A stretch of DNA of 64,000 nt from an uncultured virus (IMG/VR IMGVR_UViG_3300031787_000018) (Duplodnaviria; Heunggongvirae; Uroviricota; Caudoviricetes), in IMG/VR virus record IMGVR_UViG_3300031787_000018, positions 62,001 through 126,000 of that record. One strand, 5' to 3'. The notes below the pieces were generated by a model, which saw nothing but the letters and a program-made list of their open reading frames with translations, searched no databases and was not told the DNA's origin. The stretch's first letter is position 1. Each line of letters starts with the position of its first letter. Both the position numbers and the translations under genes were made by a program. Shown piece by piece: positions 2,795 to 47,335 of the stretch.

Positions 2795-3313
2795 ATGGAA
2801 AATTTAGTATTAAAAGGTAAAATAATATTTGATCCTGAAAACAGAACCAGGAAACACAACCGTCAGGCTGATTGGAAACGTATTGCCATGGTTCATTTTG
2901 ATGGTGAGATGTGTGATTATTATGCTTGGTTTATTGAACGTAGATATAATATAAAACTAAATAAACCACTTAGAGGTTCACACATTACCTTTATTAATGA
3001 TAGTACTAAGGACCTGACTAAGAATTTTACAATACCCGTCAAAGTTATTAATGACAATTGGTCTAAACTTAAAGATAAGTGGGATGGTAAAGAAATAGAA
3101 GTTACTTTAAACCTAGATTTACGTTCCAACGGGGAACATTGGTGGATGAAAGTTCATTCACAATCATTCGAGGATATTAGAACCGAAATAGAATTAGGTA
3201 GACCTTTCTTTAACTATCACATGACTATTGGTTATGCTAATGAACGTAATATAGAACATTCTGAATATATTGTTGGTCTCATAGATAAATTTGGTAATAA
3301 TTATGGTATATAA
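2795..3313 (+). CDS. 2H phosphoesterase family protein (possibly Acb1/T4 gp57B-like)
   Basis: Two HxT motifs, SHITF and YHMTI, about 78 aa apart in a 172 aa protein. Confidence 0.7.
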   Translation: MENLVLKGKIIFDPENRTRKHNRQADWKRIAMVHFDGEMCDYYAWFIERRYNIKLNKPLRGSHITFINDSTKDLTKNFTIPVKVINDNWSKLKDKWDGKEIEVTLNLDLRSNGEHWWMKVHSQSFEDIRTEIELGRPFFNYHMTIGYANERNIEHSEYIVGLIDKFGNNYGI

Positions 3314-3340: not shown

Positions 3341-3892
3341 ATGAAAATTATAGAAACTAAAATAAAAGATTTGGTTATCATTAAACCAAAAGTTTTTAAA
3401 GATGACAGAGGTCATTTTCTTGAAACTTATAATCAAACCGTGTTTGAAAAATTGGGCATAAATTTCGGTGACTTTCACCAAGACAATCAATCTTTATCTA
3501 AAAAAGGTGTATTAAGAGGTTTACACTTTCAAAAGGGTGAACACGCCCAAGCCAAATTGGTTAGAGTTATAAAAGGTTCAGTTTTAGATGTGGCGGTTGA
3601 CCTGAGAGAAGGTTCACCAACTTACGGTGAATGGAAATCTGTTTTGTTAACTAGTGATAATAATGTTATGTTTTTTATACCGGAAGGTTTTGCACATGGA
3701 TTTATTACACTAGAAGATGATACAATATTTAGTTACAAATGTAATAAACCTTACAACAAAGAATTTGAATCCGGTATTTTGTGGAATGATCCTGATTTAA
3801 ACATAGATTGGATGTTATACGGTGATGAACCAATAATGTCAGGAAAAGACCTAACTTTACCAACCCTTGAGGAATTAAATCAAAACTTATAA
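3341..3892 (+). CDS. rfbC: dTDP-4-dehydrorhamnose 3,5-epimerase
   Basis: DDRGHFLE, QDNQSLSKKGVLRGLHFQ, DVAVDLR..SPTYG, GFAHGF and WNDPDL motifs. Confidence 0.97.
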   Translation: MKIIETKIKDLVIIKPKVFKDDRGHFLETYNQTVFEKLGINFGDFHQDNQSLSKKGVLRGLHFQKGEHAQAKLVRVIKGSVLDVAVDLREGSPTYGEWKSVLLTSDNNVMFFIPEGFAHGFITLEDDTIFSYKCNKPYNKEFESGILWNDPDLNIDWMLYGDEPIMSGKDLTLPTLEELNQNL

Positions 3893-4385: not shown

Positions 4386-5327
4386 ATGAATAAGAAAGAA
4401 TTAAAAAACCTAAATAAAGATTTGGAAATACATTTGGTTGACATAATCAACATGTTTGACCCTTCTAAGACAAATAAATACACTAAATTCTTAGTTGATA
4501 TGTTTAAAAATTATATTTCTGAAAAAAATGAAAAAATTTCAAATAGGGACATACCATTAATTGGTAAAATAACTGGGGTGAAAGATGATAATGAGTTTTT
4601 ATATAAAATACCACAATCTAAAAATGAACTAGAAGAAGTATTAGTTGATTATATTCACGATGTTTTTAGTTATGAAAGATTAGAATCCTTACACAAATTT
4701 GACTACCATTTAAAGTTTGGTAGAATACCTCTTGAATATCGTGATATAAACAAATGTAATAGTTGGGACGATATTGTTCGTCTTAGTTCTTTAGCTACAA
4801 TTAAAGAAAAAGAAAAATCACTAGAAAAAGAAATTTTAAAAGTTTACGAAGATAATTCTTGGCTCGCAATTAAACCATTAACTTTTAAAGCTTCATTGGC
4901 ATATGGTTCTGGCACAAAATGGTGTACAGCCTCAAAAAACAACAAAGATTATTTTTATAGATATTCTAGAAATGGTGTTTTGATTTATGTAATTAGTAAG
5001 GAAAGTGGTAGAAAATTTGGTGTGTATTATACTGATTATGATGTGTTAACACCAGAATTTTCTGTATGGAATGAAATTGATAATAGAATTGACACTATTC
5101 AAACGGGTATACCTTCTGATGTGATGTCTGAAATTTATAAAAATTGTGTATCAGATATGAAAAACGTAAAATATTTTTCTGAAGAAGAATACCTAAAAAG
5201 TGAAAAGTATTATATACCAGAAGTAGTACCGATACAACAAATTGACGAAGAAGAAGCTAATATCATATATAATTATGGTGTTGATTACGAGACACCAGAC
5301 ACACCCCCAAGAGAAACCGATTTTTAA
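4386..5327 (+). CDS. DPS..NKY / YG.GTKWC paralog family protein (no leader)
   Basis: DPSKTNKYTKF and ASLAYGSGTKWCTAS motifs shared with four other ORFs in the window. Confidence 0.8.
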   Translation: MNKKELKNLNKDLEIHLVDIINMFDPSKTNKYTKFLVDMFKNYISEKNEKISNRDIPLIGKITGVKDDNEFLYKIPQSKNELEEVLVDYIHDVFSYERLESLHKFDYHLKFGRIPLEYRDINKCNSWDDIVRLSSLATIKEKEKSLEKEILKVYEDNSWLAIKPLTFKASLAYGSGTKWCTASKNNKDYFYRYSRNGVLIYVISKESGRKFGVYYTDYDVLTPEFSVWNEIDNRIDTIQTGIPSDVMSEIYKNCVSDMKNVKYFSEEEYLKSEKYYIPEVVPIQQIDEEEANIIYNYGVDYETPDTPPRETDF

Positions 5328-5352
5328 TAATTAAAAAAATAAAAAATATAAT

Positions 5353-5589
5353 ATGTTATTTGTAATTGAAGAAAATAAAACAAAAATGGCTCCACTAAAA
5401 AGCGGAGCTTTGATTGAATTAGACACATTTGGAAATGTGTGGTATAAATCTGATATAGATGTTGTGTTAGGTAAAGTTGTCAAGGATAAGTTTATACCTT
5501 TAACCAATAAAGAATTTAATTCAGATATGTTATTAGCGATAGCTAAAGTAGTCAACCAAGAAAGTATTGTTGATGAAATAAAAAAGTAA
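5353..5589 (+). CDS. Hypothetical protein
   Basis: 78 aa ORF followed by a terminator hairpin at about 5599-5622. Confidence 0.65.
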   Translation: MLFVIEENKTKMAPLKSGALIELDTFGNVWYKSDIDVVLGKVVKDKFIPLTNKEFNSDMLLAIAKVVNQESIVDEIKK

Positions 5590-5644
5590 TTCTTTATGAA
5601 ACCCCTTTACCGAGGGGTTTTTTATTTTAAGATGATATTTATTA

Positions 5645-6841
5645 ATGATGAATACTATCCGTAAAATTATTAAAGAACAATTACTCACTGAAAAGGCTGG
5701 AATATCGGAAATTGTTAGAAAATGGGCTACAATATTAAAAAATGAAGTAGACGAAAATTTAAAAATTCATAGAGAAGAACAACACAAAAAATATTCCCAA
5801 AAAACAAAGGGTATTTCATACCCATCCATGAGTGATATTTTTGATGTAAATTTAGATAAGCCTGTAAACCCTGAAGATGATCCTTTTTATTGGGAGGATG
5901 ACACTAGTAAAGGAAAAAATTATTATAAGAAAGGTTATGATGATTATATGAGAGAGGATTATAGGTCTAGACAGAGTTACAGTCAAATGTACGAACCTTT
6001 AGCCGAGGTTGTGGTATACGGTGAGGATTACCCCAAAGAATACGAAGAATTTTCAGTAGATGTTTGGGTTCTAACAAATAGTAATCGTATTGAGTATGAC
6101 CATTATGAATCTGGTTATGATGAAGATGGTTATTATATTGTTTACCTTAATATACCTTTAGCTGCCATGAGTATGTCCACTTTTATTCATGAAATTAAAC
6201 ATGCTTACGATGATTGGAATAGGATGCGAACCGGTGGTAAACCAATAAGAGATAGTTGGGAAATTAAAAATATATACACAAAAGATTTTGAAAAGTTAAT
6301 ACTAGGTGCTTCGGTAAACTTTCCACAATTGGGTCCTATAATTCGTAATTATTATATGGGTTCTAAATTGGAAACACCTGCTTACTTGGAAAACGAATAT
6401 GACAACGCAATGGTAAACTATCAAGATATTGGTAAAAAATTGATGAATTTTAAAGCATCTACTTTTATGACCAAGGAAGGTGAACCGGCTAGAGGTTTGG
6501 GGGATGAGTTTAAAAAACTACAAAGTTACGATATACCTTTATTCAAAAAATTTGATAATGTTTTAGATTTTTTAAGGTATACAGAAAAATATTTCAACCA
6601 AAGAGGTGAAGACATTTTTAGACGAGTTAACAAAATGAGATACGTTCACGGTTTACCGGCTAAACAAGAACCTAAAAAATGGGAACCAAGTACAAAAACA
6701 CAAAAAACAACAAGTACGAAGGGTACACAACAAGACCTTTTTAGTTCAAGTGAAGATTTTGATGATTGGAAATATTCTAGAGAAAGGGGTTGGTATTATG
6801 CTGGTAAAGGTGGTGAAGATTTTAATGATTATTATTACTAA
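5645..6841 (+). CDS. Leader-bearing HExxH zinc-metallopeptidase-like protein
   Basis: IRKIIKEQLLTE leader; FIHEIKHAY with a downstream LETPAYLE; paralog of 7471-8253. Confidence 0.7.
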   Translation: MMNTIRKIIKEQLLTEKAGISEIVRKWATILKNEVDENLKIHREEQHKKYSQKTKGISYPSMSDIFDVNLDKPVNPEDDPFYWEDDTSKGKNYYKKGYDDYMREDYRSRQSYSQMYEPLAEVVVYGEDYPKEYEEFSVDVWVLTNSNRIEYDHYESGYDEDGYYIVYLNIPLAAMSMSTFIHEIKHAYDDWNRMRTGGKPIRDSWEIKNIYTKDFEKLILGASVNFPQLGPIIRNYYMGSKLETPAYLENEYDNAMVNYQDIGKKLMNFKASTFMTKEGEPARGLGDEFKKLQSYDIPLFKKFDNVLDFLRYTEKYFNQRGEDIFRRVNKMRYVHGLPAKQEPKKWEPSTKTQKTTSTKGTQQDLFSSSEDFDDWKYSRERGWYYAGKGGEDFNDYYY

Positions 6842-6851
6842 ATTAAATTAA

Positions 6852-7481
6852 ATGAACATTAGAAAAATAATAAAAGAAACTTTATTATTGGAAATAGGTG
6901 AAGCCAATGTAGAACCATTCATGTGGAAGTTGGCTAACAAGACAGACGATTTTTATATCTATGAATTTAAAACGGCTGGAGGTTCAAACTTAAACATAAA
7001 TGTTACGTTTTATAAATTAAGTCCCAAGATGATGTCTAACTTAGTTGATAGAGACAGAAGATTACCAGAGGAGGCAATTAATTTAATTAAAAAAAATCCT
7101 ACGGGTTATTGGGATGTTGAGTTTACTGTTGAAGAAGACAGAGGTAGTGCACTTGATAATCCTTATCTTACAATTAGTAAATCAGAGTTTAAATCAGATA
7201 AAATAGAGTTATTTAAAATATTATCCACCTTAAACAAAATTGTTAATGATTTTTTGTATAAAGAAAAAAATGTCAGAGGACTTACTTTTAAACCAGTAAA
7301 TAGAAAAAGGGGGATGTTGTTTTTAACTTATTTTAAAAAACTTTTACCTGATGCACAAAAAATGGTAACACATTATGGTGTTCATATTATTGTTTTGGAT
7401 AAAAATTTAAATAAAGTGGATACAAGATTAAAAAAACAATCTTATCTGGATAGAAAAACGTTTGGTGATGATGAATATTAA
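6852..7481 (+). CDS. Leader-bearing hypothetical protein
   Basis: MNIRKIIKETLLLE leader, 209 aa. Confidence 0.8.
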   Translation: MNIRKIIKETLLLEIGEANVEPFMWKLANKTDDFYIYEFKTAGGSNLNINVTFYKLSPKMMSNLVDRDRRLPEEAINLIKKNPTGYWDVEFTVEEDRGSALDNPYLTISKSEFKSDKIELFKILSTLNKIVNDFLYKEKNVRGLTFKPVNRKRGMLFLTYFKKLLPDAQKMVTHYGVHIIVLDKNLNKVDTRLKKQSYLDRKTFGDDEY

Positions 7482-8253
7482 AAAAATAATAAAAAATATT
7501 CTAACAGAAAGTGCTGGTATCTCTTTTGAAGTAAGAGCTTGGTCTGATATTATTTATAACCTGTTGATAAATAACTCTGGTGATGAATTAATAGTTGATG
7601 GTCAAGAATATCCAGAAATATTTGAAAAATTTTCTGTTGATTATTTTGTTATTGATTTTAATAAAAGATTAAATGGTTATTTAAATGAAACTTCTGGTTA
7701 TGATAAAGACGGTAATTATGTGGTTCATATTTTAATTTTAGACAAACTTAAAGGTCACCCTTATTTAAAAACCGTTTTAAATCACGAAATCAAACACGCA
7801 TACCAAGATTGGCAAAGAATAAGTAAAGGTTATCCAAACATTAATTCAACAAAGGAATCCATAAACATGTATACTCGTGATTTTATCAAAGTTTTAAATA
7901 ATGAAACCCAAGTTAGTCAGATTTTTAAAGATGTATTAAAAGGTTATTACTTATTGTCAGACTTAGAGTTAGACGCTTTTATGGAAAATGTTTATGACCG
8001 AGACATGATGAATGATTACAGAGGAATGGTTTCGGAGTTAAAAAATTTATATGTGTTCAAAGACCTTCGTCATATAAGCCCAAAAATTTTAAAAAACGAT
8101 TGGTCTCTTTTGATAAACATGGACATACCTTTTTTAAAAAAATATAAAAATTACAATTCATTTTTGAAAAAATCTAACGAATATTTTAAAACAAGAAGTG
8201 AGGAAATAATTCGTAAATTAAATAAAATGGAATATGTTCACAGAGGAAGATAA
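7471..8253 (+). CDS. Leader-bearing HExxH zinc-metallopeptidase-like protein
   Basis: MNIKKIIKNILTE leader; LNHEIKHAYQ; SGYD.DG.Y motif shared with 5645-6841. Confidence 0.7.
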   Translation: MNIKKIIKNILTESAGISFEVRAWSDIIYNLLINNSGDELIVDGQEYPEIFEKFSVDYFVIDFNKRLNGYLNETSGYDKDGNYVVHILILDKLKGHPYLKTVLNHEIKHAYQDWQRISKGYPNINSTKESINMYTRDFIKVLNNETQVSQIFKDVLKGYYLLSDLELDAFMENVYDRDMMNDYRGMVSELKNLYVFKDLRHISPKILKNDWSLLINMDIPFLKKYKNYNSFLKKSNEYFKTRSEEIIRKLNKMEYVHRGR

Positions 8254-8363
8254 ACATCCCGATATTATTTTATTAGAAAATAAATTAATTAAAGTTGTTG
8301 GTGAAGAAGAGTATGAAAGAGCTGCTATATTGAAAAAGTGGATTGACTTGTTAGAAGAATACC

Positions 8364-8660
8364 ATGAAAAGAAAAATATTAAGAAAAATAATAAAAGAAG
8401 AACTTCTTAGAGAACAAATTGTTTGTCACTTAGTAGCACCCAAAGGTAAAGGTAAGGGTGGTTACATGAGTAATGAAGAGGCTTTGGATTTAATAGATAA
8501 AATACAAATAGGGGGTCGAAAAGAAATTCATGACCCACAACTTTGGGCAAAATTTGTTGAGACATTATCCGAATTTAGACAAAACATTAAAAATATTGAC
8601 ACCAACAACGATACTGTAGACACTTATTTACACAAATTGAGAGATTTGATTGGTTGTTAG
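8364..8660 (+). CDS. Leader-bearing hypothetical protein
   Basis: LRKIIKEELLRE leader. Confidence 0.75.
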   Translation: MKRKILRKIIKEELLREQIVCHLVAPKGKGKGGYMSNEEALDLIDKIQIGGRKEIHDPQLWAKFVETLSEFRQNIKNIDTNNDTVDTYLHKLRDLIGC

Positions 8661-8697
8661 TCTTTTTAATTTCACAAATTTTTCATACTATTGTTTT

Positions 8698-9057
8698 ATG
8701 AAACTATTAGATAAATTTTATTACGAACCTATTTTGGGTTTATTTCACCTATCAGGTATTGAAAGAATTATTAATGTATTTGTTATTTTATCGATTGGGG
8801 CTTTTGTTGGTGCCAACAATGTAGATTTACTAAATAAAGTTAACCCCATTGAACAAATTGGTATTTGGTATATAGTACCTTTTTTAGTTTTAAGTTATAT
8901 AATAATGGAACCTATGATAAACTTAACACCAAAAACAGAAAAAAAAAGTTTTTCTTATTTTGTGATAAATGTTTTATCAATTTTGGTTACCATGTTAGTA
9001 TTTGAGTTTATTTACAAATTGTTGTTAATCGTTTTTTTAGACTATTTTTTCAAATAA
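8698..9057 (+). CDS. Membrane protein, about 3 TM segments
   Basis: Hydrophobic stretches; ATG at 8698 preferred to the TTG at 8650. Confidence 0.7.
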   Translation: MKLLDKFYYEPILGLFHLSGIERIINVFVILSIGAFVGANNVDLLNKVNPIEQIGIWYIVPFLVLSYIIMEPMINLTPKTEKKSFSYFVINVLSILVTMLVFEFIYKLLLIVFLDYFFK

Positions 9058-9110
9058 CATGTGACTTTTTATGAATTTTTAATATTTATATAAAGATAAA
9101 TTATATTAAT

Positions 9111-10652
9111 ATGAATTCATTATATAAACTACTAGAAGAAACAGTACTACTAGAAGGTCGTAAAGAACAAGTTATGGCCAAATACCCTGATGTGGATAAA
9201 GAAGTTATAGAATTTATTTCACAAAATGACCCTTCAGGTAATAATAAATATTTAGATTGGGCTGTCAAACAAGTTAAAGAAGGTGGAGACAAAGCTGATG
9301 TGGTATATTTGGTAAACAAATATCACCAAAACTTAAGTCTGATAAACACTGACCTAATAAAAGATTATCTTGAAACTTATGACACACCTATTGAAGACAA
9401 ATTAAAAAAATCAGCAAAAGATATTAATATATTTCCGGATCTTGATGAATTAAGGGTTTTTGCCGAATTTTTAGGAAGATACTCTGCCAAATCCAAAGAA
9501 GAAAAAGAAATAAAAAGTGAAGGTGATAAAGTTTTTGAAAATAAAGATTTAACTGTTGTATCACCAAGAACTCACAGAGCTTCTTGTAAATATGGTGTAC
9601 ACAGTGCATGGTGTGTTGCTACAGCAAACACAAGTCATTTTGCTAATTATACAAAAGACGGTACTTTATATTTCTTCATTAGTAGAAAAGATTACCCTTA
9701 TACGGAATATTGGAAGGATAAAGACGGTGGTAACCCACCTTACAAAACAGCTTTATTATTGAAAGACAATGGTCAGGCTTCATGGTGGTCCAAGGGTGAT
9801 AGTAATTACGCTAATGGTTTAGACACTAATGATCCTAAATTATCACCTTTTTTCACTGAAAAAATTAAAAATGCGGTATTAGCTCACAACAGAGACGCGA
9901 TAAAAAATCGTAAACAAAGACAAATAGAAGATACTTTAAAAGCTAAAGGCTTTTATAAACCAGGTTATGGAGATAATAGTTTGAAGGACAATTTTGGTGG
10001 ATTTGTTCAATCTGGGATTTATTCAAAAGAACAATTGGTTTCAATAATAAAAAATGATAATTGGTTGGCTTTATATGAGAACTCAAATACTGGTAAAATC
10101 GTTCGTGAACAATTAGGTGGTGAAACTGTGTTTGGTTTGATAATTGAAATGTTAAGTTCTTTGGGTGTAGAAGATGTTCGTACAAAACTTAAAGACATGG
10201 AGGCACAAGATTTTTTCAGATCGGCAGTAACAAAACTAAGTGATGATGAAAATCGTCAAATAGCAAAACTTATTATCCAAAAACTTGGTGCAAAACCAAC
10301 ATCAAAAGACGTTGGTAATGATATTAAAATTTATGTTGACAAATGGACATTATCACCTGAAGGTTGGCGTACATATAACACAACTTCTAACTATTTTGTG
10401 GTAGGTGATATTGTTGGTGAAACAATAAAACCAATTCAAATGATAAAAGTTGATAGATTTAATCCAGCAGACCACAGTCAATTACAAGTTTCTTCTTGGG
10501 TAGCTAAAAACTCTAATTCTAAAATGTACGCTGTCACAACAGAAAAAGATTTATTAGACGATTATATTGGTAAAAACGTAGAATTACCTCCAGCAATACA
10601 AAAACTAGTATCCCAAAAAGCTAGTCAGGTGTGGCCAAAGGTAGATAAATAA
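9111..10652 (+). CDS. DPSGNNKYLDW / ASCKYG..WC paralog family protein with leader
   Basis: LLEGRKE leader; family motifs; AATATTTAT at 9081; terminator at about 10656-10680. Confidence 0.85.
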   Translation: MNSLYKLLEETVLLEGRKEQVMAKYPDVDKEVIEFISQNDPSGNNKYLDWAVKQVKEGGDKADVVYLVNKYHQNLSLINTDLIKDYLETYDTPIEDKLKKSAKDINIFPDLDELRVFAEFLGRYSAKSKEEKEIKSEGDKVFENKDLTVVSPRTHRASCKYGVHSAWCVATANTSHFANYTKDGTLYFFISRKDYPYTEYWKDKDGGNPPYKTALLLKDNGQASWWSKGDSNYANGLDTNDPKLSPFFTEKIKNAVLAHNRDAIKNRKQRQIEDTLKAKGFYKPGYGDNSLKDNFGGFVQSGIYSKEQLVSIIKNDNWLALYENSNTGKIVREQLGGETVFGLIIEMLSSLGVEDVRTKLKDMEAQDFFRSAVTKLSDDENRQIAKLIIQKLGAKPTSKDVGNDIKIYVDKWTLSPEGWRTYNTTSNYFVVGDIVGETIKPIQMIKVDRFNPADHSQLQVSSWVAKNSNSKMYAVTTEKDLLDDYIGKNVELPPAIQKLVSQKASQVWPKVDK

Positions 10653-11331: not shown

Positions 11332-11754
11332 ATGGTGAACAGGAAAGTTAGGTTTAATTACGATATATTAGAAGAATATAAGGCAGGTATTGTTTTAATA
11401 GGTTCTGAGGTTAAGTCTATTAAATCGGGTGATGTCAGTGTCGACGGGTCTTATTGCTTCTTCAAGGACGGTGAGTTGTTTATTAAAAATATGTACGTCA
11501 AACCATATGAAAGTTCAAGAAATGATTTAGACCCAAGACGTGATAGAAAATTACTTCTTAAAAAAAAAGAAATTAAAAAGTTACAAATAGCTCTTAGTGA
11601 AAAAGGTTTAACTATAATACCTTTGGCTTTAAAAAATGAAGGTAGAATAAAAGTTATAATTGGTGTTGGTAGAGGTAAAAAAATATACGATAAAAAAGAA
11701 ACAATAAAAGAACGTGATATAAAAAAACAATTAAAGAAAAATTATGAAATTTAA
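11332..11754 (+). CDS. smpB: SsrA-binding protein SmpB
   Basis: NRKVRFNY, AGIVLIGSEVKSIK, DPRRDRKLLL, GLTIIPL and GKKIYDKKETIKERD motifs. Confidence 0.95.
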   Translation: MVNRKVRFNYDILEEYKAGIVLIGSEVKSIKSGDVSVDGSYCFFKDGELFIKNMYVKPYESSRNDLDPRRDRKLLLKKKEIKKLQIALSEKGLTIIPLALKNEGRIKVIIGVGRGKKIYDKKETIKERDIKKQLKKNYEI

Positions 11755-12858: not shown

Positions 12859-13491
12859 ATGAAATTAAGTATAACAAACAAATTTATCAAATCATTTGCT
12901 GAAATGATTAATCGTCAAACAGTTTTATGGAAAACTTGGGATTTTTTACGTTATGAAATGCCAAACTTTTTCAAAAACGTTTGGTTATTTAGAAAAGCAT
13001 TATTCCAATATCGTTGGTATGGATATAATGGTGTTCTTATGTTTATGGAAACATCAATTGGTGACATGGCAAAAAACATAGACATAAAAGGTAATGAAGT
13101 TGATAGTTCCAGAAAGAAAAAAGTGGACAAAATGATTACCGCTCAATATATTTTAGATAGATTTATCAAAGATGATTTTGTTGAGTTGGCAGAAAAAGAA
13201 TTAGGGGTTTTACCTGATAGACCTTTACAATTTAAACCTTGTGAAGATAGACCTGGTTATTACGAAATGGTTGATGATGATACTCCTGAAGAAAAAGAAC
13301 TTAGAAAAAAAGTTTATGAAAGGTCACGTCAAATTGAAAAACAAATGTGGGAACAACTATGGGAAATTTTTAAAGGACAGGATTTTGATAAGTTTAAAGA
13401 TGCACCCGAAAATATCACCGATTGGGATGAACAATACAAATATTGGGATGAACAATTTGATGGTTCTGGTCTAAAAGGATGGTGGGATTAA
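12859..13491 (+). CDS. Hypothetical protein
   Basis: 210 aa; TATATTTG promoter element just upstream; ends GWWD. Confidence 0.8.
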   Translation: MKLSITNKFIKSFAEMINRQTVLWKTWDFLRYEMPNFFKNVWLFRKALFQYRWYGYNGVLMFMETSIGDMAKNIDIKGNEVDSSRKKKVDKMITAQYILDRFIKDDFVELAEKELGVLPDRPLQFKPCEDRPGYYEMVDDDTPEEKELRKKVYERSRQIEKQMWEQLWEIFKGQDFDKFKDAPENITDWDEQYKYWDEQFDGSGLKGWWD

Positions 13492-13539
13492 TGGTGATTT
13501 TTATCACCATTAATTTTTTAAAATTTTTAATTTTGTGAT

Positions 13540-14082
13540 ATGAAAAAATTATTATTATCTTTATTATTACCCCTGAATTTATTCGCCACTGATTTTGTAT
13601 ATTTAGTCGGACAAGAATGGCCCAATAATAATATATCCGGAAATTACAGTTCAGATACAGTTCAGATAAGTGTTACAAATTTTGACAAATTAATTGTACG
13701 TAATGTCGCCACGTATGGTATTGGGTGTAGTATAAATGGGTTTATAGTAGATGGTATGGCACAGTCAGAGGCAAGATTATTTGATTTTACTAATGATAAC
13801 CTAAGTGACACCAAACAATTTGTATTTTTTGATGGTAATAATGTATTTGTTGTAAACGTATTAATTATTGACGTTATTACAAACGTTAGATATGTAAGAT
13901 TATTTAACCATCCAAACTTTAAGTCAGAACTACAAAACTCAAATGTATATGTCGTTGATATATTTGGTAATATTATCTACATGGGTGATGGAAATAAATT
14001 AGATATCATCAACATATCTGACTATGGTATTGGTATGTATATATTGATGATTAACAATAAAAAAATTAAAATTATAAAATAA
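13540..14082 (+). CDS. Secreted protein with a T9SS type-A CTD-like tail
   Basis: Signal peptide MKKLLLSLLLPLNLFA; C-terminal VYVVDIFGNII...INISDYGIGMYILMINNKKIKIIK. Confidence 0.65.
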   Translation: MKKLLLSLLLPLNLFATDFVYLVGQEWPNNNISGNYSSDTVQISVTNFDKLIVRNVATYGIGCSINGFIVDGMAQSEARLFDFTNDNLSDTKQFVFFDGNNVFVVNVLIIDVITNVRYVRLFNHPNFKSELQNSNVYVVDIFGNIIYMGDGNKLDIINISDYGIGMYILMINNKKIKIIK

Positions 14083-14164
14083 CGGTTGATGATAAACAAT
14101 CGTTTTAATGTTGTTTATCATTTGTTATATTCAGTTTTTATTAGTATATTTGTAAAAAAATAAA

Positions 14165-14464
14165 ATGATTAAAGAAATTAAAAAATGGGTATTGTTTAAT
14201 ATTTTGAAAGGTAAAGCACATCTTTTAAGATTCAAACATTTTTTAAAAACAGGAAGAGACATTGAAATGTTACCACCACCACAAAAAGATTATGCTAGAG
14301 CTTATTTTTTTGAAATAGAAAATGGTGATTATGTTTTAAAACATCATGAAATTCCGTCAAATTTCATAGAAAAGTTCCACGAAGACTTCAATAACAAAAA
14401 TGGTAAGTTAATGGGTTTAACAAGGGAACAAGTGGTTAGATGGGTTGTAGAAAATAAAAATTGA
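14165..14464 (+). CDS. Cassette 1 hypothetical protein
   Basis: 99 aa ORF inside 14124-14471 with its own TATATTTG promoter element. Confidence 0.75.
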   Translation: MIKEIKKWVLFNILKGKAHLLRFKHFLKTGRDIEMLPPPQKDYARAYFFEIENGDYVLKHHEIPSNFIEKFHEDFNNKNGKLMGLTREQVVRWVVENKN

Positions 14465-14521
14465 ATATAACGATACTCAGATATATTTCAGGTTTCTGAT
14501 ATTTATATATAAAACAAAATT

Positions 14522-14770
14522 ATGAGCAAAGAAATGAGAAAATACATAGACACTTTCAAACAGAGACTAACTGAATCAGAAAACTTGAATATATCTGATG
14601 TTAGTGATAGTGAGTTATTCACTTTACAAGATATAAAAGACGCTATTACAATAGCGTTCAGATGGGGAAAACCTATTGGTTGGGGCGAAGGTCCTGAAAA
14701 ATTTGATGAGGAGGAAAAGAATGTCTTTAACGAGATTATCAAGGAATTAAGAATTAGGAAAAGTGAATAA
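14522..14770 (+). CDS. Cassette 2 protein, N-terminus encoded inside the preceding hairpin
   Basis: GATATTTAT at 14498; MSKEMRKYIDTFKQRLTE leader; crosses GTTA at 14600. Confidence 0.7.
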   Translation: MSKEMRKYIDTFKQRLTESENLNISDVSDSELFTLQDIKDAITIAFRWGKPIGWGEGPEKFDEEEKNVFNEIIKELRIRKSE

Positions 14771-14856
14771 ACTAATTATCACTAACGTTTGCAAATATGA
14801 GAAGTAAATTTTTCCTCTAAGATTTGGTAATCTAAAATTTATTTCTTATATTTGTT

Positions 14857-14959
14857 GTTATAAGTAGTGTGTGGGTGATTAACCCCGCATCGGAAGATTA
14901 ACTAATAGTGGTGAAAATCCACAGCGGGGTCAATGTCATCTACACACATTACTTATAAC
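14857..14959 (+). ncRNA. Cassette 3: ORF-less structured RNA
   Basis: Nested helices including ACCCCGC/GCGGGGT and GTGG-TGAAAAT-CCAC; TTTG-N20-TATATTTG promoter at 14823-14854. Confidence 0.55.
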
Positions 14960-15024
14960 GGTTTCGGGCTTTGCGTTCGGCAGGGCTTATGGAAACGGAT
15001 TTATCAACTTAAAAATAAATAACA

Positions 15025-15312
15025 ATGGAAAACGAAAACTTAAATTTGAACGAAACCCCTGCTGACGCAAAACCCGTGTTAGGCGATGTTTTCCCTTCGG
15101 GTGGAATTGACCTTGTTGGGTACAATGTAGAATATTGGGTAAGAAGTCCAAAAGCAACTTTTTTAGCTAAAGGCTTAATTGTGTCTTACAGCAAAAAGGG
15201 CAAACATGGGAAAGGGTCTTATTCGGGTGGTGTTTATGTAATTAGATGCGGTAAAAGGACGTTTTCAAAGAGAAGATGTGAATTTACGGTGGTGTCTAAA
15301 AATATCGCCTAA
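15025..15312 (+). CDS. Cassette 4 protein, N-terminus encoded inside the preceding hairpin
   Basis: 95 aa; crosses GTTA at 15078; its stop is the TAA of the closing TAAC. Confidence 0.7.
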   Translation: MENENLNLNETPADAKPVLGDVFPSGGIDLVGYNVEYWVRSPKATFLAKGLIVSYSKKGKHGKGSYSGGVYVIRCGKRTFSKRRCEFTVVSKNIA

Positions 15313-15359
15313 CTATTATATATAAACAAGTATAGGTTAAACCATTTAAAATCAATTAA

Positions 15360-16161
15360 ATGAACCAAAAAATTATAAAGATTTGCGAAGAAAAGTTTAT
15401 ATACTTAAATTACTCTCCTCGAACAAAAGATAATTATTTAAGTCACATTAAAGACTTCCTAAAATCTCTGGGAGATAAACAAGTCATTCATTGTAATTCA
15501 AAAGATTTCCAATCTTACTTAGATAACTACAAATTTACCTCTATTTCACAACAAAACCAAGTTATTAACTCAATCAGATTTCTCTACAAATTCGGTCTAA
15601 ATAAGAAATACGATAAAGTATCTTTCAAACGACCCAAGTCAGAAAAGAAGTTACCAAAAGTAATTGATAATGATTACATTATAGAGTGTCTATCGAAGAT
15701 AAATAATTTGAAGCATAAATCAATATTATCTTTGTCGTATTCGGTTGGTTTGAGGGTTTTCAGAAGTTGTTAATCTTAAGATAGAAGACATTGATTCTAA
15801 AAGAATGATAATCCATATCAAAAACGCTAAAGGTAGAAAAGATAGGGTAGTCCCCCTTTCTCAGAACATCTTAGAATTATTAAGAAGTTATTACAAAGAG
15901 TTTAGGCCAATTGATTTTTTATTTAATGGTCAAAATAACTTAAAATATAGTACTGGCAGTTGTAACCAAATTGTTAAAAAATACTTAGGTGAAAAATATC
16001 ACATTCACCAATTAAGACATAGTTGTGCAACAAACCTATTGGAGAATGGTACAGACCTAAAATTAATTCAAAAAATATTAGGTCATTATTCAGTTAAAAC
16101 TACAGAAATATATACACATGTCTCAAATCAATTATTGTCAAAGGTAAATCTTCCTATTTAA
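15360..16161 (+). pseudogene. Tyrosine recombinase (N-terminal SAM-like plus catalytic domain) split by a +1 T frameshift
   Basis: YSPRTKDNYL; YSVGLRV then SEVVNLK once one T is removed from GGGTTTT at 15754-15760; KGRKDR, HQLRHSCAT and LGH..VKTTEIYTH. Confidence 0.9.
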
Positions 16162-16197
16162 TTTTGCCACCAAATAGATAATCACTATATTTGTTAT

Positions 16198-16446
16198 ATG
16201 AAAAATACATTATTAGTTTTATTAGGTTTATTTCTGATGTCAACCACGGTTGTGACTGTAAATAAAATGTCAGACAGAAGTAAGGAACAAAAGGTTATTC
16301 TAGGAAGAAATCTTAACCAATTAAAGGTTGAAATACAAGATAACTTTAAATTAGGTTATCGTGTTGTGGCTATGGTTAATCAAAACCAAGACACTTATAG
16401 CAATTCATCACCAAACGATGAGATAATGGTTGTAATGGAAAAATAA
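16198..16446 (+). CDS. Small exported hypothetical protein
   Basis: Signal-like N-terminus; TATATTTG upstream. Confidence 0.7.
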   Translation: MKNTLLVLLGLFLMSTTVVTVNKMSDRSKEQKVILGRNLNQLKVEIQDNFKLGYRVVAMVNQNQDTYSNSSPNDEIMVVMEK

Positions 16447-16451
16447 TTATC

Positions 16452-16763
16452 ATGTCAACAAAATTCAAATTCAATAACGGTAATATGGCATTAGTATGTT
16501 CTTCTTGTGGGAGGATACTAAAAACAGGCGGTGAGTTTACAGAACAAGAATGGAGGTGTTTAAACGGTGAGGTAGATTTAGGTGATAAGTATTGTTCTGA
16601 TTGTGAAGATAATGTTAAACCTGAAGATAAAACTGGTGATAACATGATGTCAAATTTAGAACATATAAAAAATATTTTACCACATATTAGGAATGATGAA
16701 AATTTTCAGTTAAATTTGTTAAATAGTTTAATGAAAAAAATCAAAAATGATAAACAATCGTAA
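16452..16763 (+). CDS. Zn-ribbon-like hypothetical protein
   Basis: CSSC and CSDC pairs. Confidence 0.65.
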   Translation: MSTKFKFNNGNMALVCSSCGRILKTGGEFTEQEWRCLNGEVDLGDKYCSDCEDNVKPEDKTGDNMMSNLEHIKNILPHIRNDENFQLNLLNSLMKKIKNDKQS

Positions 16764-17160
16764 ATTTAAAACAAACTTATTAATAACAATTTTTAATTTC
16801 TTATTTGGAATAAGTTTGTTTGGTCAAAATAGTTATGTTGTACTAAAATATAGTAATATTAAAATAGTAACTCCTACCGATACAACAATACACAAGATAC
16901 AAAATTATTTTTATTTTAACGAATGTTCTTTTGTTATATCTTCACAATCAACAAGGGTTTATGATATTCTAATACCTTCTGTAAATGAATTTGATGTTAC
17001 AGGTGTTAGGGTATTACAAGATACTGGTGTGAAGTTGGAGGATGGTGGTGTGATTTATGAGGCACCAATGCATAAGAGACAAGTTGCAGTTTATTTTAGT
17101 GAAGGTTTAACCGAATTAAAAATAATGAGAAAAGATAAAACAGGTGTTATATTTTATTAA
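16747..17160 (+). CDS. Hypothetical exported protein
   Basis: Signal-like N-terminus, 137 aa. Confidence 0.65.
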   Translation: MINNRKFKTNLLITIFNFLFGISLFGQNSYVVLKYSNIKIVTPTDTTIHKIQNYFYFNECSFVISSQSTRVYDILIPSVNEFDVTGVRVLQDTGVKLEDGGVIYEAPMHKRQVAVYFSEGLTELKIMRKDKTGVIFY

Positions 17161-17162
17161 TT

Positions 17163-17432
17163 ATGACGTTAGAGGCACAATACAAAGAATTTAAAACAAA
17201 AAACCCAGATTCTGCTTTGACATTTGAAGAATGGTATGAAAGTAAGTTTTACAGGATTAATGAATTAATTGTTGAAAAATTAAAAGAGAAAAAACATGGT
17301 TTTAACATAGAACATATGTATCATTTTTTTTGTGGTGATTGTAAAGAATTATGGTCATTAAGTGAGTATAAACCAAGTAAAGATAAAATGTTAACTTGTC
17401 CACATTGTGGGTTTAAATCAAATATTATTTAA
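17163..17432 (+). CDS. Zn-ribbon-like hypothetical protein
   Basis: CGDC and CPHC pairs. Confidence 0.65.
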   Translation: MTLEAQYKEFKTKNPDSALTFEEWYESKFYRINELIVEKLKEKKHGFNIEHMYHFFCGDCKELWSLSEYKPSKDKMLTCPHCGFKSNII

Positions 17433-17582
17433 ATTTATGAAAGAAGTTATTGGAAAATCAAAGGTTAGTACTGCCTTAATATTAATGGGACCTATAGCTA
17501 AGGGATATAATCTTAGACTTAATCGTGTCAAAGAATTTAAAAAGGTACGTGAAATTGTGGAAAGTAAGTATAAAATCATAAA

Positions 17583-45844: not shown

Positions 45845-46546
45845 TTACATATCTCTACCACTTTCAAAAATATGTTTTAAAACTGGGAACCTTAGACTTA
45901 CACCACCTTCTTGATTTTGTGTTTCTTCAAAAAATTGTATAGTAGCCAATTTACCAACAATCTTTGACGGGTCCCTGAAAAATTCTTTACGTTGTTCAAG
46001 CGTAAAACCACTACCAACACCAACTTCATAACCTTTATGTTCGATAACAATTTGTGATGTCATGGTTTCAGTAACTTCTTTACCATCCACCACGATACGA
46101 ATTGGACCGTAATTAATTCCTTTAACAACGTATTCAGCATCATGAAAGTTTTTAGCTTTTAATAAATCCTTACTACGTTTACCTTTATACCCAACATCTT
46201 TACGAACCATAACACCCTCCCAACCGTTGTTCTCAGCCTCATCTAACCATTTTTGAAAGTGTTGGATGTTTTCTACCTTTTCTTGGGGTAAAATTTCACA
46301 AGTACCCAAGAGGTGTGGGGCTTTATTTAATAAAACTTGTTCAAAAGCCACAAAATTACTGGATAAAACTTCTAATCTTTTAGATAAATTACGTACACTA
46401 GTTTTGTTACTAAATTCTTCTAATGATAACATATCAAAAATTTTGTACTTTACATTATCAATACGGTGGTTTTTACGACGAATTTCTTTCATTATGTTAG
46501 TGAAATTCTCTGAATAATAACGTGTAATTTTTTTAATTTTTTTCAT
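45845..46546 (-). CDS. ATP-dependent DNA ligase, C-terminal fragment
   Basis: ATG at 46546 (MKKIKKITRYYSENF); IFDML, WEGVMVR, KRSKDLLK, VGSGFT and SLRFP motifs. Confidence 0.9.
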   Translation of the reverse strand: MKKIKKITRYYSENFTNIMKEIRRKNHRIDNVKYKIFDMLSLEEFSNKTSVRNLSKRLEVLSSNFVAFEQVLLNKAPHLLGTCEILPQEKVENIQHFQKWLDEAENNGWEGVMVRKDVGYKGKRSKDLLKAKNFHDAEYVVKGINYGPIRIVVDGKEVTETMTSQIVIEHKGYEVGVGSGFTLEQRKEFFRDPSKIVGKLATIQFFEETQNQEGGVSLRFPVLKHIFESGRDM

Positions 46547-47303: not shown

Positions 47304-47335
47304 AATTATAATGTATTATTATAAATATCATAAAA

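What the first reader, a model, noticed from the sequence alone, without database searches (positions are those of the whole stretch)
14077..16161. Phage-borne integron-like cassette array served by a non-IntI tyrosine recombinase
Seen: four imperfect hairpins open with TAAC and close with TGTTA (14080-14127, 14468-14603, 14783-14860, 14956-15081), each with a short unpaired stretch after TAAC and mismatched or bulged bases. Each intervening unit has self-complementary ends: GTTATATTCAGTTTTTATT/AATAAAAATTGAATATAAC (18/19), GTTAGTGATAGT/ATTATCACTAAC (11/12, extending further), GTTATAAGTAGTGTGTG/CACACATTACTTATAAC (16/17) and GTTAGGCGATGTTTT/AAAATATCGCCTAAC (14/15). Known: this is the signature of integron cassettes, where the R'' of an attC matches the R' at the start of the same cassette. 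Unusual: it is in a phage, the recombinase is downstream and co-directional, it lacks the IntI-specific insertion between KGRKDR and the LF patch, and the end matches exceed 7 bp. Inference: an undescribed or poorly described single-strand cassette-shuffling system.
Basis: partly seen in the sequence, partly recalled or inferred. Interest (0 to 1): 0.92.

Follow-up and report, generated by a model that had tools for sequence, protein, structure and literature searches.

The report
Integron-like gene-cassette array in a phage
A large freshwater phage carries a row of four small swappable DNA units, each marked by a folding hairpin, next to its own short recombinase gene; this is the layout of a bacterial integron, run by a different and simpler enzyme.

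Summary
Window 14080-15313 holds four cassettes. Each is an imperfect hairpin (TAAC...TGTTA) followed by a unit whose ends pair (GTTA-N6-GT...ATT-N6-TAAC). A conserved docking site follows (15310-15359), then a 266-aa Xer-like tyrosine recombinase (15360-16161). The recombinase lacks the roughly 50-residue IntI insertion and is frameshifted here.

The layout is a family trait. In 73 related phage loci, such units lie at 0.64 per kb upstream of the recombinase and 0.01 per kb downstream.

The cassettes move. Whole hairpin-plus-unit blocks sit in different places in related arrays, and the breaks fall at TAAC.

A sister haplotype of this same phage, seen in other metagenomes, has five more cassettes (1,523 nt). 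They are inserted exactly at the recombinase-proximal TAAC, on a contig that also carries the in-frame recombinase allele.

A cassette is therefore a hairpin plus the unit downstream of it, and the cassette genes are inverted relative to classical integrons.

Single-strand folding is inferred, not shown. The evidence for it is compensatory changes, a conserved G.T mismatch at stem position 11, and a more stable + strand in 51 of 54 hairpins.

This scan has noted the same system eight times on other DNA. My seven literature searches found no description in print.

The parts
14080..14471 (+). Cassette 1. Hairpin 14080-14127 is 48 nt; its stem GATGATAAACAA/TTGTTTATCAT is capped by the loop TCGTTTTAATG. 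The unit is 14124-14471 with pairing ends 14124-14142/14453-14471 and ORF 14165-14464 (99 aa, no family).
   Evidence: Searches show the features. One search finds the hairpin family at 94-96% identity in many related arrays, and one search covers the loop motif. Searches find ORF homologues (86-88% aa) in five other phage contigs, outside any array.
14468..14786 (+). Cassette 2. Hairpin 14468-14603 is 136 nt. The unit is 14600-14786. ORF 14522-14770 (82 aa) starts inside the hairpin loop and reads through GTTA into the unit.
   Evidence: A homologous cassette lies in L025 3920-4295 (71% nt; 63% aa).
14783..14959 (+). Cassette 3. Hairpin 14783-14860 is 78 nt. The unit 14857-14959 is 103 nt with no ORF and folds as one long hairpin.
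   Evidence: The unit folds at -21.7 kcal/mol, z -5.6. No Rfam family reaches its gathering score.
14956..15313 (+). Cassette 4, the one nearest the recombinase in this haplotype. Hairpin 14956-15081 is 126 nt. The unit is 15078-15313 with ends GTTAGGCGATGTTTT/AAAATATCGCCTAAC. ORF 15025-15312 (95 aa) starts in the hairpin loop and stops on the TAA of the core TAAC.
   Evidence: A homologue at 75% nt lies in L093 2930-3289, with homology running exactly from TAAC to TAAC and followed there by another cassette.
15310..15359 (+). Docking site, attI-like: TAAC-TATTATATAT followed by about 35 nt up to the start codon. Five extra cassettes are inserted here in the sister haplotype.
   Evidence: One search shows the consensus TAAC-TA-N-N-ATATAT, read by eye across the 64 distinct upstream regions listed; a few have CAAC or a less similar sequence.
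15360..16161 (+). Xer-like tyrosine recombinase, about 266 aa if read in frame. It has an N-terminal SAM-like domain and a C-terminal catalytic domain, and is split by one extra T in the run 15757-15760.
   Evidence: Pfam PF13495 and PF00589. NCBIfam scores are below every cut-off. The IntI insertion is absent. It is the only split copy among the 76 copies (window included) not cut by a contig end. The in-frame allele is seen in 3 of 4 runs laid.

Best explanation
This is a phage-borne, integron-like site-specific recombination platform.

**Cassette anatomy (+ strand).** Each cassette reads C, a 4-5-nt spacer (G-K-N-N), an L-stem with its loop, N-T, then GTTA-N6-GT..., the cargo, and ...ATT-N6-TAA.

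**Folding (inferred).** When the + strand is single, the two ends of the unit pair into a 14-15-bp stem next to the core, with a conserved G.T mismatch at position 11. The hairpin supplies a second stem across an asymmetric internal loop. Together they resemble the R box, unpaired spacer and L box of an attC bottom strand.

**Enzyme and reaction (inferred).** The 266-aa Xer-like recombinase encoded just downstream is inferred to cut at or beside TAA|C. It would exchange strands between two such sites, which excises or reorders cassettes. It would also exchange between a cassette site and the docking site TAAC-TATTATATAT next to its own gene, which inserts a cassette.

**Shown:**
- the anatomy of the sites;
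- their tie to the recombinase;
- compensatory changes in the stems;
- the strand bias in stability;
- cassette gain, loss and reordering with breaks at TAAC, including in this very phage.

**Inferred:**
- that this enzyme is the one that acts;
- that the substrate is folded single-stranded DNA;
- the exact cut position within TAAC;
- resolution of the junction by replication.

**State in this window.** The enzyme gene is frameshifted and the array has four cassettes. The sister haplotype has an in-frame gene and nine cassettes.
For: 1. **Tie to the recombinase.** In 73 dereplicated related loci there are 157 units in 246 kb upstream of the recombinase and 3 in 390 kb downstream. Of 54 loci with at least 1 kb upstream, 49 have at least one unit.

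2. **Structure without circular selection.** 57 distinct sites were chosen only for holding the 11-nt loop TCGTTTTAATG. Their ten flanking positions form Watson-Crick pairs in 548 of 570 cells. Shuffled partners give a mean of 383 and a maximum of 422, and several pair types occur per position. That loop occurs 58 times upstream of the recombinase, 0 times downstream and 0 times on the - strand.

3. **Unit-end stems.** In 160 distinct units, position 11 is G.T in 149 and position 12 is T-A in 145. Positions 5-10 show all four Watson-Crick pair types. Pairing at those positions was a selection criterion; the place and kind of the one mismatch were not.

4. **Strand bias.** The + strand hairpin is the more stable in 51 of 54 distinct hairpins (Wilcoxon p 2.7e-9), with 152 G.T pairs against 43.

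5. **Mobility among relatives.**
   - L016 4004-4280 matches L023 1553-1827 and L035 2981-3255 at 97.5%. The block is next to the recombinase in L016 and internal in the other two.
   - L023 2634-3593 matches L035 583-1542 at 99.9%. It is next to the recombinase in L023 and distal in L035.
   - L009 has one more cassette than L011, inserted between ...TAAC and the docking site.
   - Distinct left ends of shared blocks start at YAAC in 47 of 86 (chance 6%) and at GTTA in 1 of 86.

6. **This phage itself.** Contig L181 reads window 15187-15313, then 1,523 nt holding five cassettes, then window 15310-15430. A 7,111-nt contig of run X8 shows the same 1,523-nt gap and also lacks the extra T at 15757. 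Run X9 is collinear with the window and keeps the extra T.

7. **Cultured relatives.** The recombinase of Polaribacter phage Freya is 38% identical. Freya_1 and Freya_10 have flanks that are 99.8-100% identical and differ by 4,921 nt upstream of the integrase. The break falls right after ...ATTGTTTACAAC.

8. **Enzyme class.** The closest solved structure by sequence is archaeal XerA 4a8e, E 2e-35. The catalytic-domain hallmarks are present.
Against: - No recombination product (circle or excision junction) was seen directly. The runs laid were assembled contigs, not reads.
- The recombinase in this window is frameshifted, so this copy may be inactive.
- The enzyme lacks the IntI insertion that, as I recall from the VchIntIA-VCR structure, holds the flipped-out bases of attC. 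Recognition must therefore differ from integrons.
- The + strand is also the mRNA strand. The G.T bias of the hairpins could come from RNA structure such as terminators.
- The window's fourth hairpin is more stable on the - strand: -17.7 against -16.0 kcal/mol.
- L093 has an array with no recombinase within 3 kb.
- The count of long end-repeats in this one genome was matched by at least one of 100 shuffles.
- No promoter or terminator signal explains how the cassettes are expressed.
Confidence: 0.8

Rival explanations
1. The hairpins are regulatory modules, such as terminators or RNA-processing sites. Cassettes would shuffle by ordinary homologous recombination between these repeated modules, as I recall was proposed for promoter-stem-loop cassettes of T4-type phages. 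The recombinase would be an unrelated neighbour.
For: - Hairpin families are repeated at 90-96% identity within and between arrays, which offers homology for recombination.
- The folding strand is the sense strand.
- Many shared blocks cover only a hairpin plus the leader up to the ATG: 23 of 86 right ends.
Against: - Insertions occur next to the docking site, which shares only the TAAC core with the hairpins.
- Breaks fall at one 4-nt core even between hairpins of different families.
- The unit ends pair with each other across the whole gene and carry a fixed G.T at position 11. A terminator does not need this.
- Arrays abut the recombinase in 49 of 54 loci.
- The terminator scan finds little: 3 matches against 1.0 +/- 1.0 in shuffles.
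Confidence: 0.07
2. The units are small non-autonomous transposable elements with terminal inverted repeats (MITE-like or IS200/IS605-like). They would insert at a TAAC target using an enzyme encoded elsewhere.
For: - Each unit has terminal inverted repeats, and the core is present on both sides of an insertion.
- An array can lie far from any recombinase, as in L093.
Against: - Units are almost confined to the DNA just upstream of this one recombinase family: 157 against 3.
- All point one way: 145 of 151.
- The repeat sequences differ from unit to unit and keep only their pairing, which is not how one transposase recognises its ends.
- The 132-kb record holds no other copy of the hairpins. 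It was not scanned for transposases.
Confidence: 0.05
3. The recombinase is an ordinary phage integrase for lysogeny or a dimer-resolution (Xer) enzyme. The variable region beside it would be a hypervariable accessory-gene island kept there for other reasons.
For: - It scores best against Xer families.
- The authors of the Freya phages read their integrase as a sign of a temperate life style (passages of PMC8776804).
Against: - No conserved dif-like 28-bp site is present. The only conserved sequence next to the gene is the TAAC docking motif, where cassettes enter.
- No tRNA gene lies in the window.
- Bacterial relatives of the enzyme also sit beside arrays of the same sites, though in a different gene order.
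Confidence: 0.05
4. The paired ends and hairpins act at the RNA level, for example in processing or stabilising each gene's transcript, and do not act in DNA recombination.
For: - G.T (G.U) pairs are enriched on the sense strand.
- The hairpins lie between genes.
Against: - The breakpoints of DNA variants coincide with the core.
- In bacterial relatives the sites have the opposite polarity to the genes: position 11 is A.C on the sense strand in the units I read off. The conserved wobble there lies on the antisense strand, which RNA function would not predict.
Confidence: 0.03

Closest known systems
Classical integrons (IntI, attI, attC cassettes), especially sedentary chromosomal integrons with homogeneous attC sites such as the Vibrio cholerae array (VchIntIA, PDB 2a3v)
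   Same: - A tyrosine recombinase gene lies beside a docking site and an array of one-gene cassettes.
- Sites are imperfect hairpins opening with AAC and closing with GTT, with an unpaired spacer between two stems.
- The end of each cassette pairs with its own start.
- New cassettes enter next to the recombinase gene.
- Hairpin families are shared by unrelated cassettes.
- With the - strand read as the top strand, gene order and site polarity match the classical layout.
- One unit here even ends in GTTAGGC/GCCTAAC, which I recall as the classical core and inverse-core consensus.
   Different: - The enzyme lacks the IntI insertion: about 22 residues stand where VchIntIA has about 73. It fails the IntI model at 156 bits against a cut-off of 265.
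- The core-side stem is 14-15 bp with a fixed G.T at position 11, not about 7 bp.
- Cassette genes lie on the folding strand and point toward the recombinase.
- Many genes start inside the hairpin loop: 59 of 145.
- The host is a phage.
Clusters of attC sites lacking an integrase (CALINs) reported in phage genomes, including a Polaribacter phage (Qi et al. 2023, PMC9892861; I read the abstract and section 3.4)
   Same: These are attC-type hairpins in virulent phages, including a phage of a Bacteroidota host. DNA methylases are among the cassettes, as here (4 of the 101 cassette proteins scanned from related loci).
   Different: That work used IntegronFinder and reports these clusters as lacking an integron integrase. 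The parts I read describe no Xer-like partner enzyme, docking site or array dynamics. I did not test whether those sites belong to the family seen here. P12002L gave no recombinase match at E 1e-20.
Xer recombinases and their mobile clients (archaeal XerA, PDB 4a8e and 5hxy; dif-bounded modules of Acinetobacter plasmids, PMC7399989, search listing only)
   Same: The enzyme is Xer-sized and aligns end to end with XerA (E 2e-35). Modules are bounded by recombination sites.
   Different: There is no conserved 28-bp dif-like site. Only a 4-nt core and a few fixed positions are constant, and the rest is kept as pairing. The enzyme scores below the XerA, XerC and XerD cut-offs.
Arrays beside insertion-less relatives of this enzyme in bacterial genomes (for example Arundinibacter roseus L122, Flavobacterium palustre L142)
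   Same: The enzyme family is the same at 40-50% identity, also without the insertion. In the examples I read, the hairpins have the same YAAC...GTTR cores and asymmetric spacer, and the position-11 mismatch is in the same place.
   Different: There the array lies downstream of the recombinase, and the genes are on the strand opposite the folding strand. This is the classical gene-then-site polarity, seen in 21 of the 22 units compared, with one tie. In the phages both the recombinase and the cassette genes are flipped relative to the sites.

Membership tests
Integron | IntI-type integrase carrying the integron-specific extra domain | tested here: not met
   Against VchIntIA (2a3v), query residues 19-177 align to chain 19-180 and query 200-262 to chain 254-313. 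About 51 residues of IntI therefore have no counterpart. TIGR02249 scores 156.4 bits against a cut-off of 265, in two stretches.
Integron | attC sites: imperfect hairpins with AAC...GTT cores, two stems and an unpaired spacer, conserved in structure rather than sequence | tested here: met
   Searches show the cores, the asymmetric spacer, compensatory changes (548 of 570 paired cells against 383 for shuffled partners) and the strand bias. The attC covariance model of IntegronFinder was not available. No Rfam family reached its gathering score here.
Integron | Extrahelical bases that set strand choice | tested here: inconclusive
   A fixed G.T at position 11 (149 of 160 units) and an asymmetric internal loop (4-6 nt against 1-3 nt) give the two strands different structures. 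Whether any base is flipped out cannot be told from sequence.
Integron | attI beside the integrase gene, where cassettes enter | tested here: met
   The motif TAAC-TA-N-N-ATATAT lies about 45 nt before the start codon; I read this by eye from the 64 distinct upstream regions listed. Insertions at that exact point are seen in L009 against L011, in L080 against L081, and in this phage.
Integron | Cassettes gained, lost and reordered as units at the core | tested here: met
Integron | Promoterless cassettes whose genes point away from the integrase and are read from a common promoter | tested here: not met
   145 of 151 units have their gene on the strand of the recombinase, pointing toward it. 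No common or cassette promoter could be shown.
Integron | Recombination of the folded bottom strand only, with resolution by replication | not testable with these tools
   Only indirect signs exist: the strand bias in stability and the geometry, with the exchange core at the 5' end of the more stable strand.
Xer/dif systems (dif modules, IMEX) | A conserved dif-like site of about 28 bp with two recombinase-binding arms | tested here: not met
   Outside the 4-nt core and a few fixed positions, the arms vary freely and keep only their pairing.
Invertons and shufflons | Segments between inverted repeats found in both orientations | tested here: not met
   145 of 151 units have one orientation. 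The joints listed in the four runs laid are all of the 'skips' kind; none changes strand.

The most novel reading that the evidence does not exclude
Xer-like recombinases without the IntI insertion run a second, widespread kind of integron in aquatic Bacteroidota and their phages. The phage version is autonomous and active during infection. It captures and reorders small genes, among them orphan methylases, an RNA ligase and ADP-ribosyltransferases, from co-infecting phages through folded + strand hairpins.

If so, the extra domain of IntI is not needed for hairpin-site recombination. The haplotype pair in this phage (in-frame with nine cassettes, frameshifted with four) would then be a natural record of activity being on or off.
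Probability: 0.55. Interest if true: 0.92.

Novelty: new variant of a known kind. Interest (0 to 1): 0.86.

Why it matters
Integrons are defined by IntI, and IntI's extra domain is held to be what lets a tyrosine recombinase work on folded single-stranded hairpins. Here a system has the same logic but a plain Xer-sized enzyme, and it is common:

- 246 relatives in viral contigs;
- thousands of proteins at 77% identity or more;
- this one phage in 20 runs from 14 studies, 2017-2025.

Three consequences would follow:
1. Cassette platforms are much broader than current search tools report.
2. Large phages would have a dedicated engine for swapping accessory and likely counter-defence genes.
3. 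A cultured system would be available for testing, namely the Polaribacter Freya phages.

The data may also bear on how cassettes are made. The gene of cassette 1 exists as an ordinary gene in five other phage contigs, with homology limited to the reading frame.

Tried and rejected
- **Rfam.** No family reaches its gathering score in the window. In E-value mode on 14000-15400 the only matches are two hairpin-shaped microRNA families far below threshold.
- **tRNA genes.** None in the window.
- **Close DNA relatives.** BLAST of 13500-17500 against deposited phages gave one irrelevant 106-nt match.
- **Synteny.** Apart from scattered, mostly non-syntenic matches for 5 of the 17 flanking ORFs, the window's flanking genes have no counterparts in the 79 related loci. 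Gain and loss could not be read from close relatives in that set. It came instead from metagenome contigs and runs.
- **Own promoters.** I considered that each cassette carries a Bacteroidota-type promoter (TAnnTTTG; motif recalled). This is not supported: 15 of 149 cassettes have the motif within 70 nt of the start, against a background of 6% per 70 nt.
- **Sigma-70-like promoters and intrinsic terminators.** Neither is clearly enriched in 13400-16400: 19 promoter matches against 18.8 in shuffles, and 3 terminator matches against 1.0 +/- 1.0.
- **Second array or second recombinase in the 132-kb record.** None found.
- **Exact 37-nt pattern in viral contigs.** Only the twin contig matched.
- **Joints with short sides.** Several joints with sides of 20-24 letters (for example 14866 to 15310) were not used, because the tool warns that such joints often come from repeats.
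- **Steps not run.** Structure prediction of the enzyme and complex prediction. The sequence alignment to 2a3v already showed the missing segment.
Full report
**Where the window lies.** The window is bases 62001-126000 of a 132,425-nt IMG/VR virus record. CheckV puts the record at 67% complete, and its G+C is 29%. A 12.4-kb stretch around the finding is 100% identical to part of a 318-kb viral contig (L078). Of 44 ORFs scanned against PHROGs, those with named matches include a DNA ligase split by a homing endonuclease, other homing endonucleases, a DNA-binding protein and a weak UvsX-like match. No structural gene lies in this window. I accept that this is part of a large phage genome.

**The observation.** All four hairpins and all four unit-end repeats are at the stated coordinates.

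- The hairpins share one plan: TAAC, then 5-6 unpaired bases on the 5' side against 1-3 on the 3' side, then a stem of 10-20 pairs, and a close with T-GTTA.
- The units share another plan: GTTA-N6-GT... at the left end and ...ATT-N6-TAAC at the right.

In this genome alone the count of such repeats is not compelling. There are 11 of at least 12 nt against 9.07 in shuffles. There are 3 of at least 15 nt against a mean of 0.48, and at least one of 100 shuffles also reached 3. What chance does not give is four of them tiling 1.2 kb and ending 46 nt before a recombinase gene.

**It is a family trait.** The C-terminal half of the recombinase found 246 relatives in viral contigs, and 80 loci were kept. 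After dereplication to 73 loci:

- Strict units (ends pairing over at least 13 nt with at most one mismatch) number 157 in 246 kb upstream of the recombinase and 3 in 390 kb downstream.
- 49 of the 54 loci with at least 1 kb upstream have one or more units.
- In 30 of the 52 loci with a unit, the last TAAC lies 25-74 nt before the start codon.

In the 160 distinct units, the one mismatch allowed by the search falls at position 11 and is G.T in 149. Position 12 is T-A in 145. Positions 5-10 use all four Watson-Crick pairs, and pairing fades after position 14-15. T precedes GTTA in 98% of units, and G follows TAAC in 76%. Pairing at positions 5-10 was a selection criterion, so I made a test free of that bias. 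I took 57 distinct sites chosen only because they hold the 11-nt loop TCGTTTTAATG. Their ten flanking positions pair in 548 of 570 cells, against a mean of 383 and a maximum of 422 when partners are shuffled, and several pair types occur per position. That loop occurs 58 times upstream of the recombinase, in 30 of 73 loci. It never occurs downstream or on the other strand. It caps either the hairpin stem, as at 14100-14110 here, or an otherwise empty unit stem.

**Which strand folds.** As single-stranded DNA, the + strand of the hairpin is the more stable in 51 of 54 distinct hairpins. Mean energies are -14.6 against -12.7 kcal/mol (p 2.7e-9), and the predicted folds hold 152 G.T pairs against 43. 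Three of the window's four hairpins follow this; the fourth does not. The + strand is also the sense strand, so RNA structure could explain the bias in the phages.

The bacterial relatives speak against that. In the units that I read off, the position-11 mismatch there is A.C on the sense strand, so the wobble lies on the antisense strand.

**What a cassette is, and where exchange occurs.**

- Identical or near-identical blocks that run from the TAAC opening a hairpin to the TAAC closing the next unit sit in different places in related arrays.
  - L016 4004-4280 matches L023 1553-1827 and L035 2981-3255 at 97.5%. The block is next to the recombinase in L016 and internal in the others.
  - L023 2634-3593 matches L035 583-1542 at 99.9%. 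It is next to the recombinase in L023 and L024 and distal in L035.
- L009 has one more cassette than L011, placed between ...TAAC and the docking motif. L080 and L081 differ likewise.
- Over all shared blocks of at least 100 nt at 90% identity or more, 47 of 86 distinct left ends start at YAAC (6% by chance) and 1 starts at GTTA.
- Of the 86 distinct right ends, 28 fall just after GTTR, 23 at or just after the ATG, 10 at YAAC and 25 elsewhere.

So a hairpin is seen with different units to its right, but a unit is almost never seen with a different hairpin to its left. The unit nearest the recombinase is followed directly by the docking motif, with no hairpin between. This places the exchange at the TAAC on the 5' side of the hairpin and makes the cassette a hairpin plus the unit downstream of it. 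It also fits the genes. In 59 of 145 cassettes the reading frame starts inside the hairpin loop and runs through GTTA into the unit. The window's ORFs 14522-14770 and 15025-15312 do this, and exchange at GTTA would cut them.

With the - strand read as the top strand, the layout becomes the classical one: a recombinase pointing away, a docking site ending in G|TTA, and cassettes each closed by their hairpin. The difference is that the genes are inverted: 145 of 151 lie on the recombinase's strand.

**This phage itself.** The stretch 13000-17000 is held by 20 runs from 14 studies of freshwater and related samples, 2017-2025. Three of those runs may be the source. I laid the contigs of four runs:

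- In X8, X16 and X20 one T is missing at 15757, which restores the reading frame. X9 keeps the extra T.
- One 7,111-nt contig of X8 covers window 14837-15313, then 1,523 other letters, then window 15310-17000, and it carries the one-letter gap.
- X16 and X20 leave the window at 15313 in the same way, on separate contigs.
- X9 is collinear with the window from 15053 to 16300.

A metagenome contig, L181, gives the inserted sequence: window 15187-15313, then 1,523 nt, then window 15310-15430, both flanks at 100%. By eye the insert parses into five further cassettes of the same build. Two of them carry their gene in the hairpin loop and have an empty unit capped by TCGTTTTAATG.

Contig L180 (window 14120-16029, 100%) and the 318-kb twin carry four cassettes and the extra T. 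There are thus two haplotypes:

- four cassettes with a broken enzyme gene;
- nine cassettes with an intact one, with the linkage shown on one contig in X8.

Which form is ancestral is open. Either way, the difference is a block bounded by the core at the docking site.

**Other cassettes of the window elsewhere.**

- Cassette 4 (14956-15313) has a homologue at 75% in L093 2930-3289. Homology runs exactly from TAAC to TAAC. It is followed there by another cassette, and no recombinase lies within 3 kb.
- The gene of cassette 1 has homologues at 86-88% in five other viral contigs that show no units and no recombinase within 3 kb. In the three that I aligned, homology starts 6 nt before the ATG and ends at the stop codon.
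- Cassette 3 has no reading frame and folds as one long hairpin, z -5.6.

**The enzyme.** Pfam finds the SAM-like N-terminal domain and the catalytic domain. The intact relative from L017 scores as follows against NCBIfam:

| Model | Bits | Cut-off |
|---|---|---|
| XerA | 188.9 | 220 |
| XerD | 162 | 330 |
| XerC | 162 | 335 |
| IntI (TIGR02249), in two stretches | 156.4 | 265 |

Against solved structures it aligns end to end with XerA 4a8e (E 2e-35). Against VchIntIA 2a3v it aligns in two stretches that leave about 51 IntI residues unmatched.

The kept loci plus the window make 80 copies.

- Four are cut by a contig end.
- Of the other 76, 64 are intact by a strict test.
- Eleven align as one unbroken stretch from residue 15-18 on.
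- Only the window's copy is split.

A search of 5.8 billion proteins scored 8,000 candidates. Of these, 7,987 passed E 1e-10. The 120 listed are mostly 266-268 aa, at 77% identity or more, and are named at most 'XerD' or 'integrase'.

**Cargo.** The window's three cassette proteins match no Pfam or PHROG family. Of 101 cassette proteins from related arrays, 11 match Pfam at E 1e-4 or better:

- four N6/N4 DNA methylases;
- an RNA ligase;
- an Rv2179c-like exoribonuclease;
- an ART-PolyVal ADP-ribosyltransferase;
- a weak PARP-like match;
- DUF7448;
- two likely fragments (NeuB, EF-Tu).

The other 90 match nothing. Orphan methylases and RNA repair enzymes are the sort of genes phages use against host defences. 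That reading is inference.

**Relatives outside this family.**

- Cultured Polaribacter phages Freya_1 to Freya_10 encode an enzyme 38% identical to this one. Freya_1 and Freya_10 have flanks that are 99.8-100% identical and differ by 4,921 nt upstream of the integrase. The break falls directly after ...ATTGTTTACAAC, and Freya_6 is a third variant with breaks after ...CCAAC. The paper on these phages reads the integrase only as a sign of a possible temperate life style (passages).
- In bacterial genomes the scan found 547 relatives at 40-50% identity, mostly Bacteroidota. At least eight loci, among them the isolates Arundinibacter roseus and Flavobacterium palustre, hold units with pairing GTT...AAC ends, but downstream of the recombinase. 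In the three whose hairpins I examined, the site polarity is reversed. The genes lie on the non-folding strand in 21 of the 22 units compared, with one tie.

**Print.** Seven searches found no description of this system.

- The nearest paper is Qi et al. 2023 (PMC9892861; abstract and section 3.4 read). It reports IntegronFinder 'CALINs' in 17 phages, one of them a Polaribacter phage, as clusters lacking an integrase.
- IntegronFinder 2.0 (PMC9024848; passages read) reports only one complete integron in Bacteroidetes proper.
- Supplements were not opened, and subscription journals are not covered by the library.
- Within this scan, eight earlier notes on other genomes reached the same reading. 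I treated them as leads and tested their main claims here.

**Verdict.** The thing works like an integron but is not one by the IntI criterion. Single-strand chemistry and the identity of the acting enzyme remain to be shown at the bench.

Noticed in passing
L087-L091 (match at 3001-3297 in each) compared with window 14165-14464: The gene of cassette 1 exists as an ordinary gene in five other viral contigs, without hairpins, paired ends or a nearby recombinase. In the three I aligned (L087, L089, L090), homology covers only the reading frame, from 6 nt before the ATG to the stop. The native 3' end already resembles the cassette's right-end repeat in about 13 of 19 positions. This may bear on how cassettes are made.
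   Followed up: partly
Related loci, for example L007 5071-5172 against L026 3840-3939, and L030 4450-4599 against L056 2894-3046: Many shared blocks consist of a hairpin, the left end-repeat and the leader, and stop exactly at the ATG (23 of 86 right ends at or just after an ATG). Unrelated genes follow. Units of different length and content can share both end-repeats; GTTAGCACCAGTAC does so in at least four units.
   Followed up: partly
Window 14100-14110, and 58 sites in 30 of 73 related loci: The invariant 11-nt loop TCGTTTTAATG caps stems of many different sequences. It is found only on the + strand and only upstream of the recombinase. It also caps 'empty' units of about 29 nt next to the docking site, for example in L015, L039, L043 and L056. 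Its role is unknown.
   Followed up: partly
L122 (Arundinibacter roseus) 5001-10356, L142 (Flavobacterium palustre) 5001-7861, L164: Bacterial genomes carry the same enzyme family and the same kind of sites, but with the array downstream of the recombinase and genes in the classical gene-then-site polarity. In L122 an ORF that looks to me like a single-stranded-DNA-binding protein (by eye, no call) lies between the recombinase and the array.
   Followed up: partly
Window 45848-48127, - strand: An ATP-dependent DNA ligase is in two pieces: 47339-48127 matches profile positions 90-310 and 45848-46546 matches 305-497 of phrog_114. A homing endonuclease gene (46536-47303) lies between them. This may be an intron or intein-type insertion.
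   Followed up: no
Window 11332-11754, + strand: A 140-aa protein matches phrog_6791 (unknown function, E 4e-43). By eye it looks like the tmRNA-binding protein SmpB; this is recalled, not tested. No tmRNA gene was found in the window.
   Followed up: no
Window 3341-3889, + strand: A dTDP-4-dehydrorhamnose 3,5-epimerase homologue (phrog_8784, E 1.5e-62), an auxiliary sugar-metabolism gene in a phage.
   Followed up: no
Window 14072-14205 in runs X8, X9, X16 and X20: Summed contig depth over the 48-nt hairpin is 2 to 22 times that of the flanks (416 against 19 in X8). Many loose ends start exactly at 14080 or 14127-14129. The same hairpin family is therefore shared by many other arrays in these communities, and it breaks assemblies there.
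   Followed up: partly
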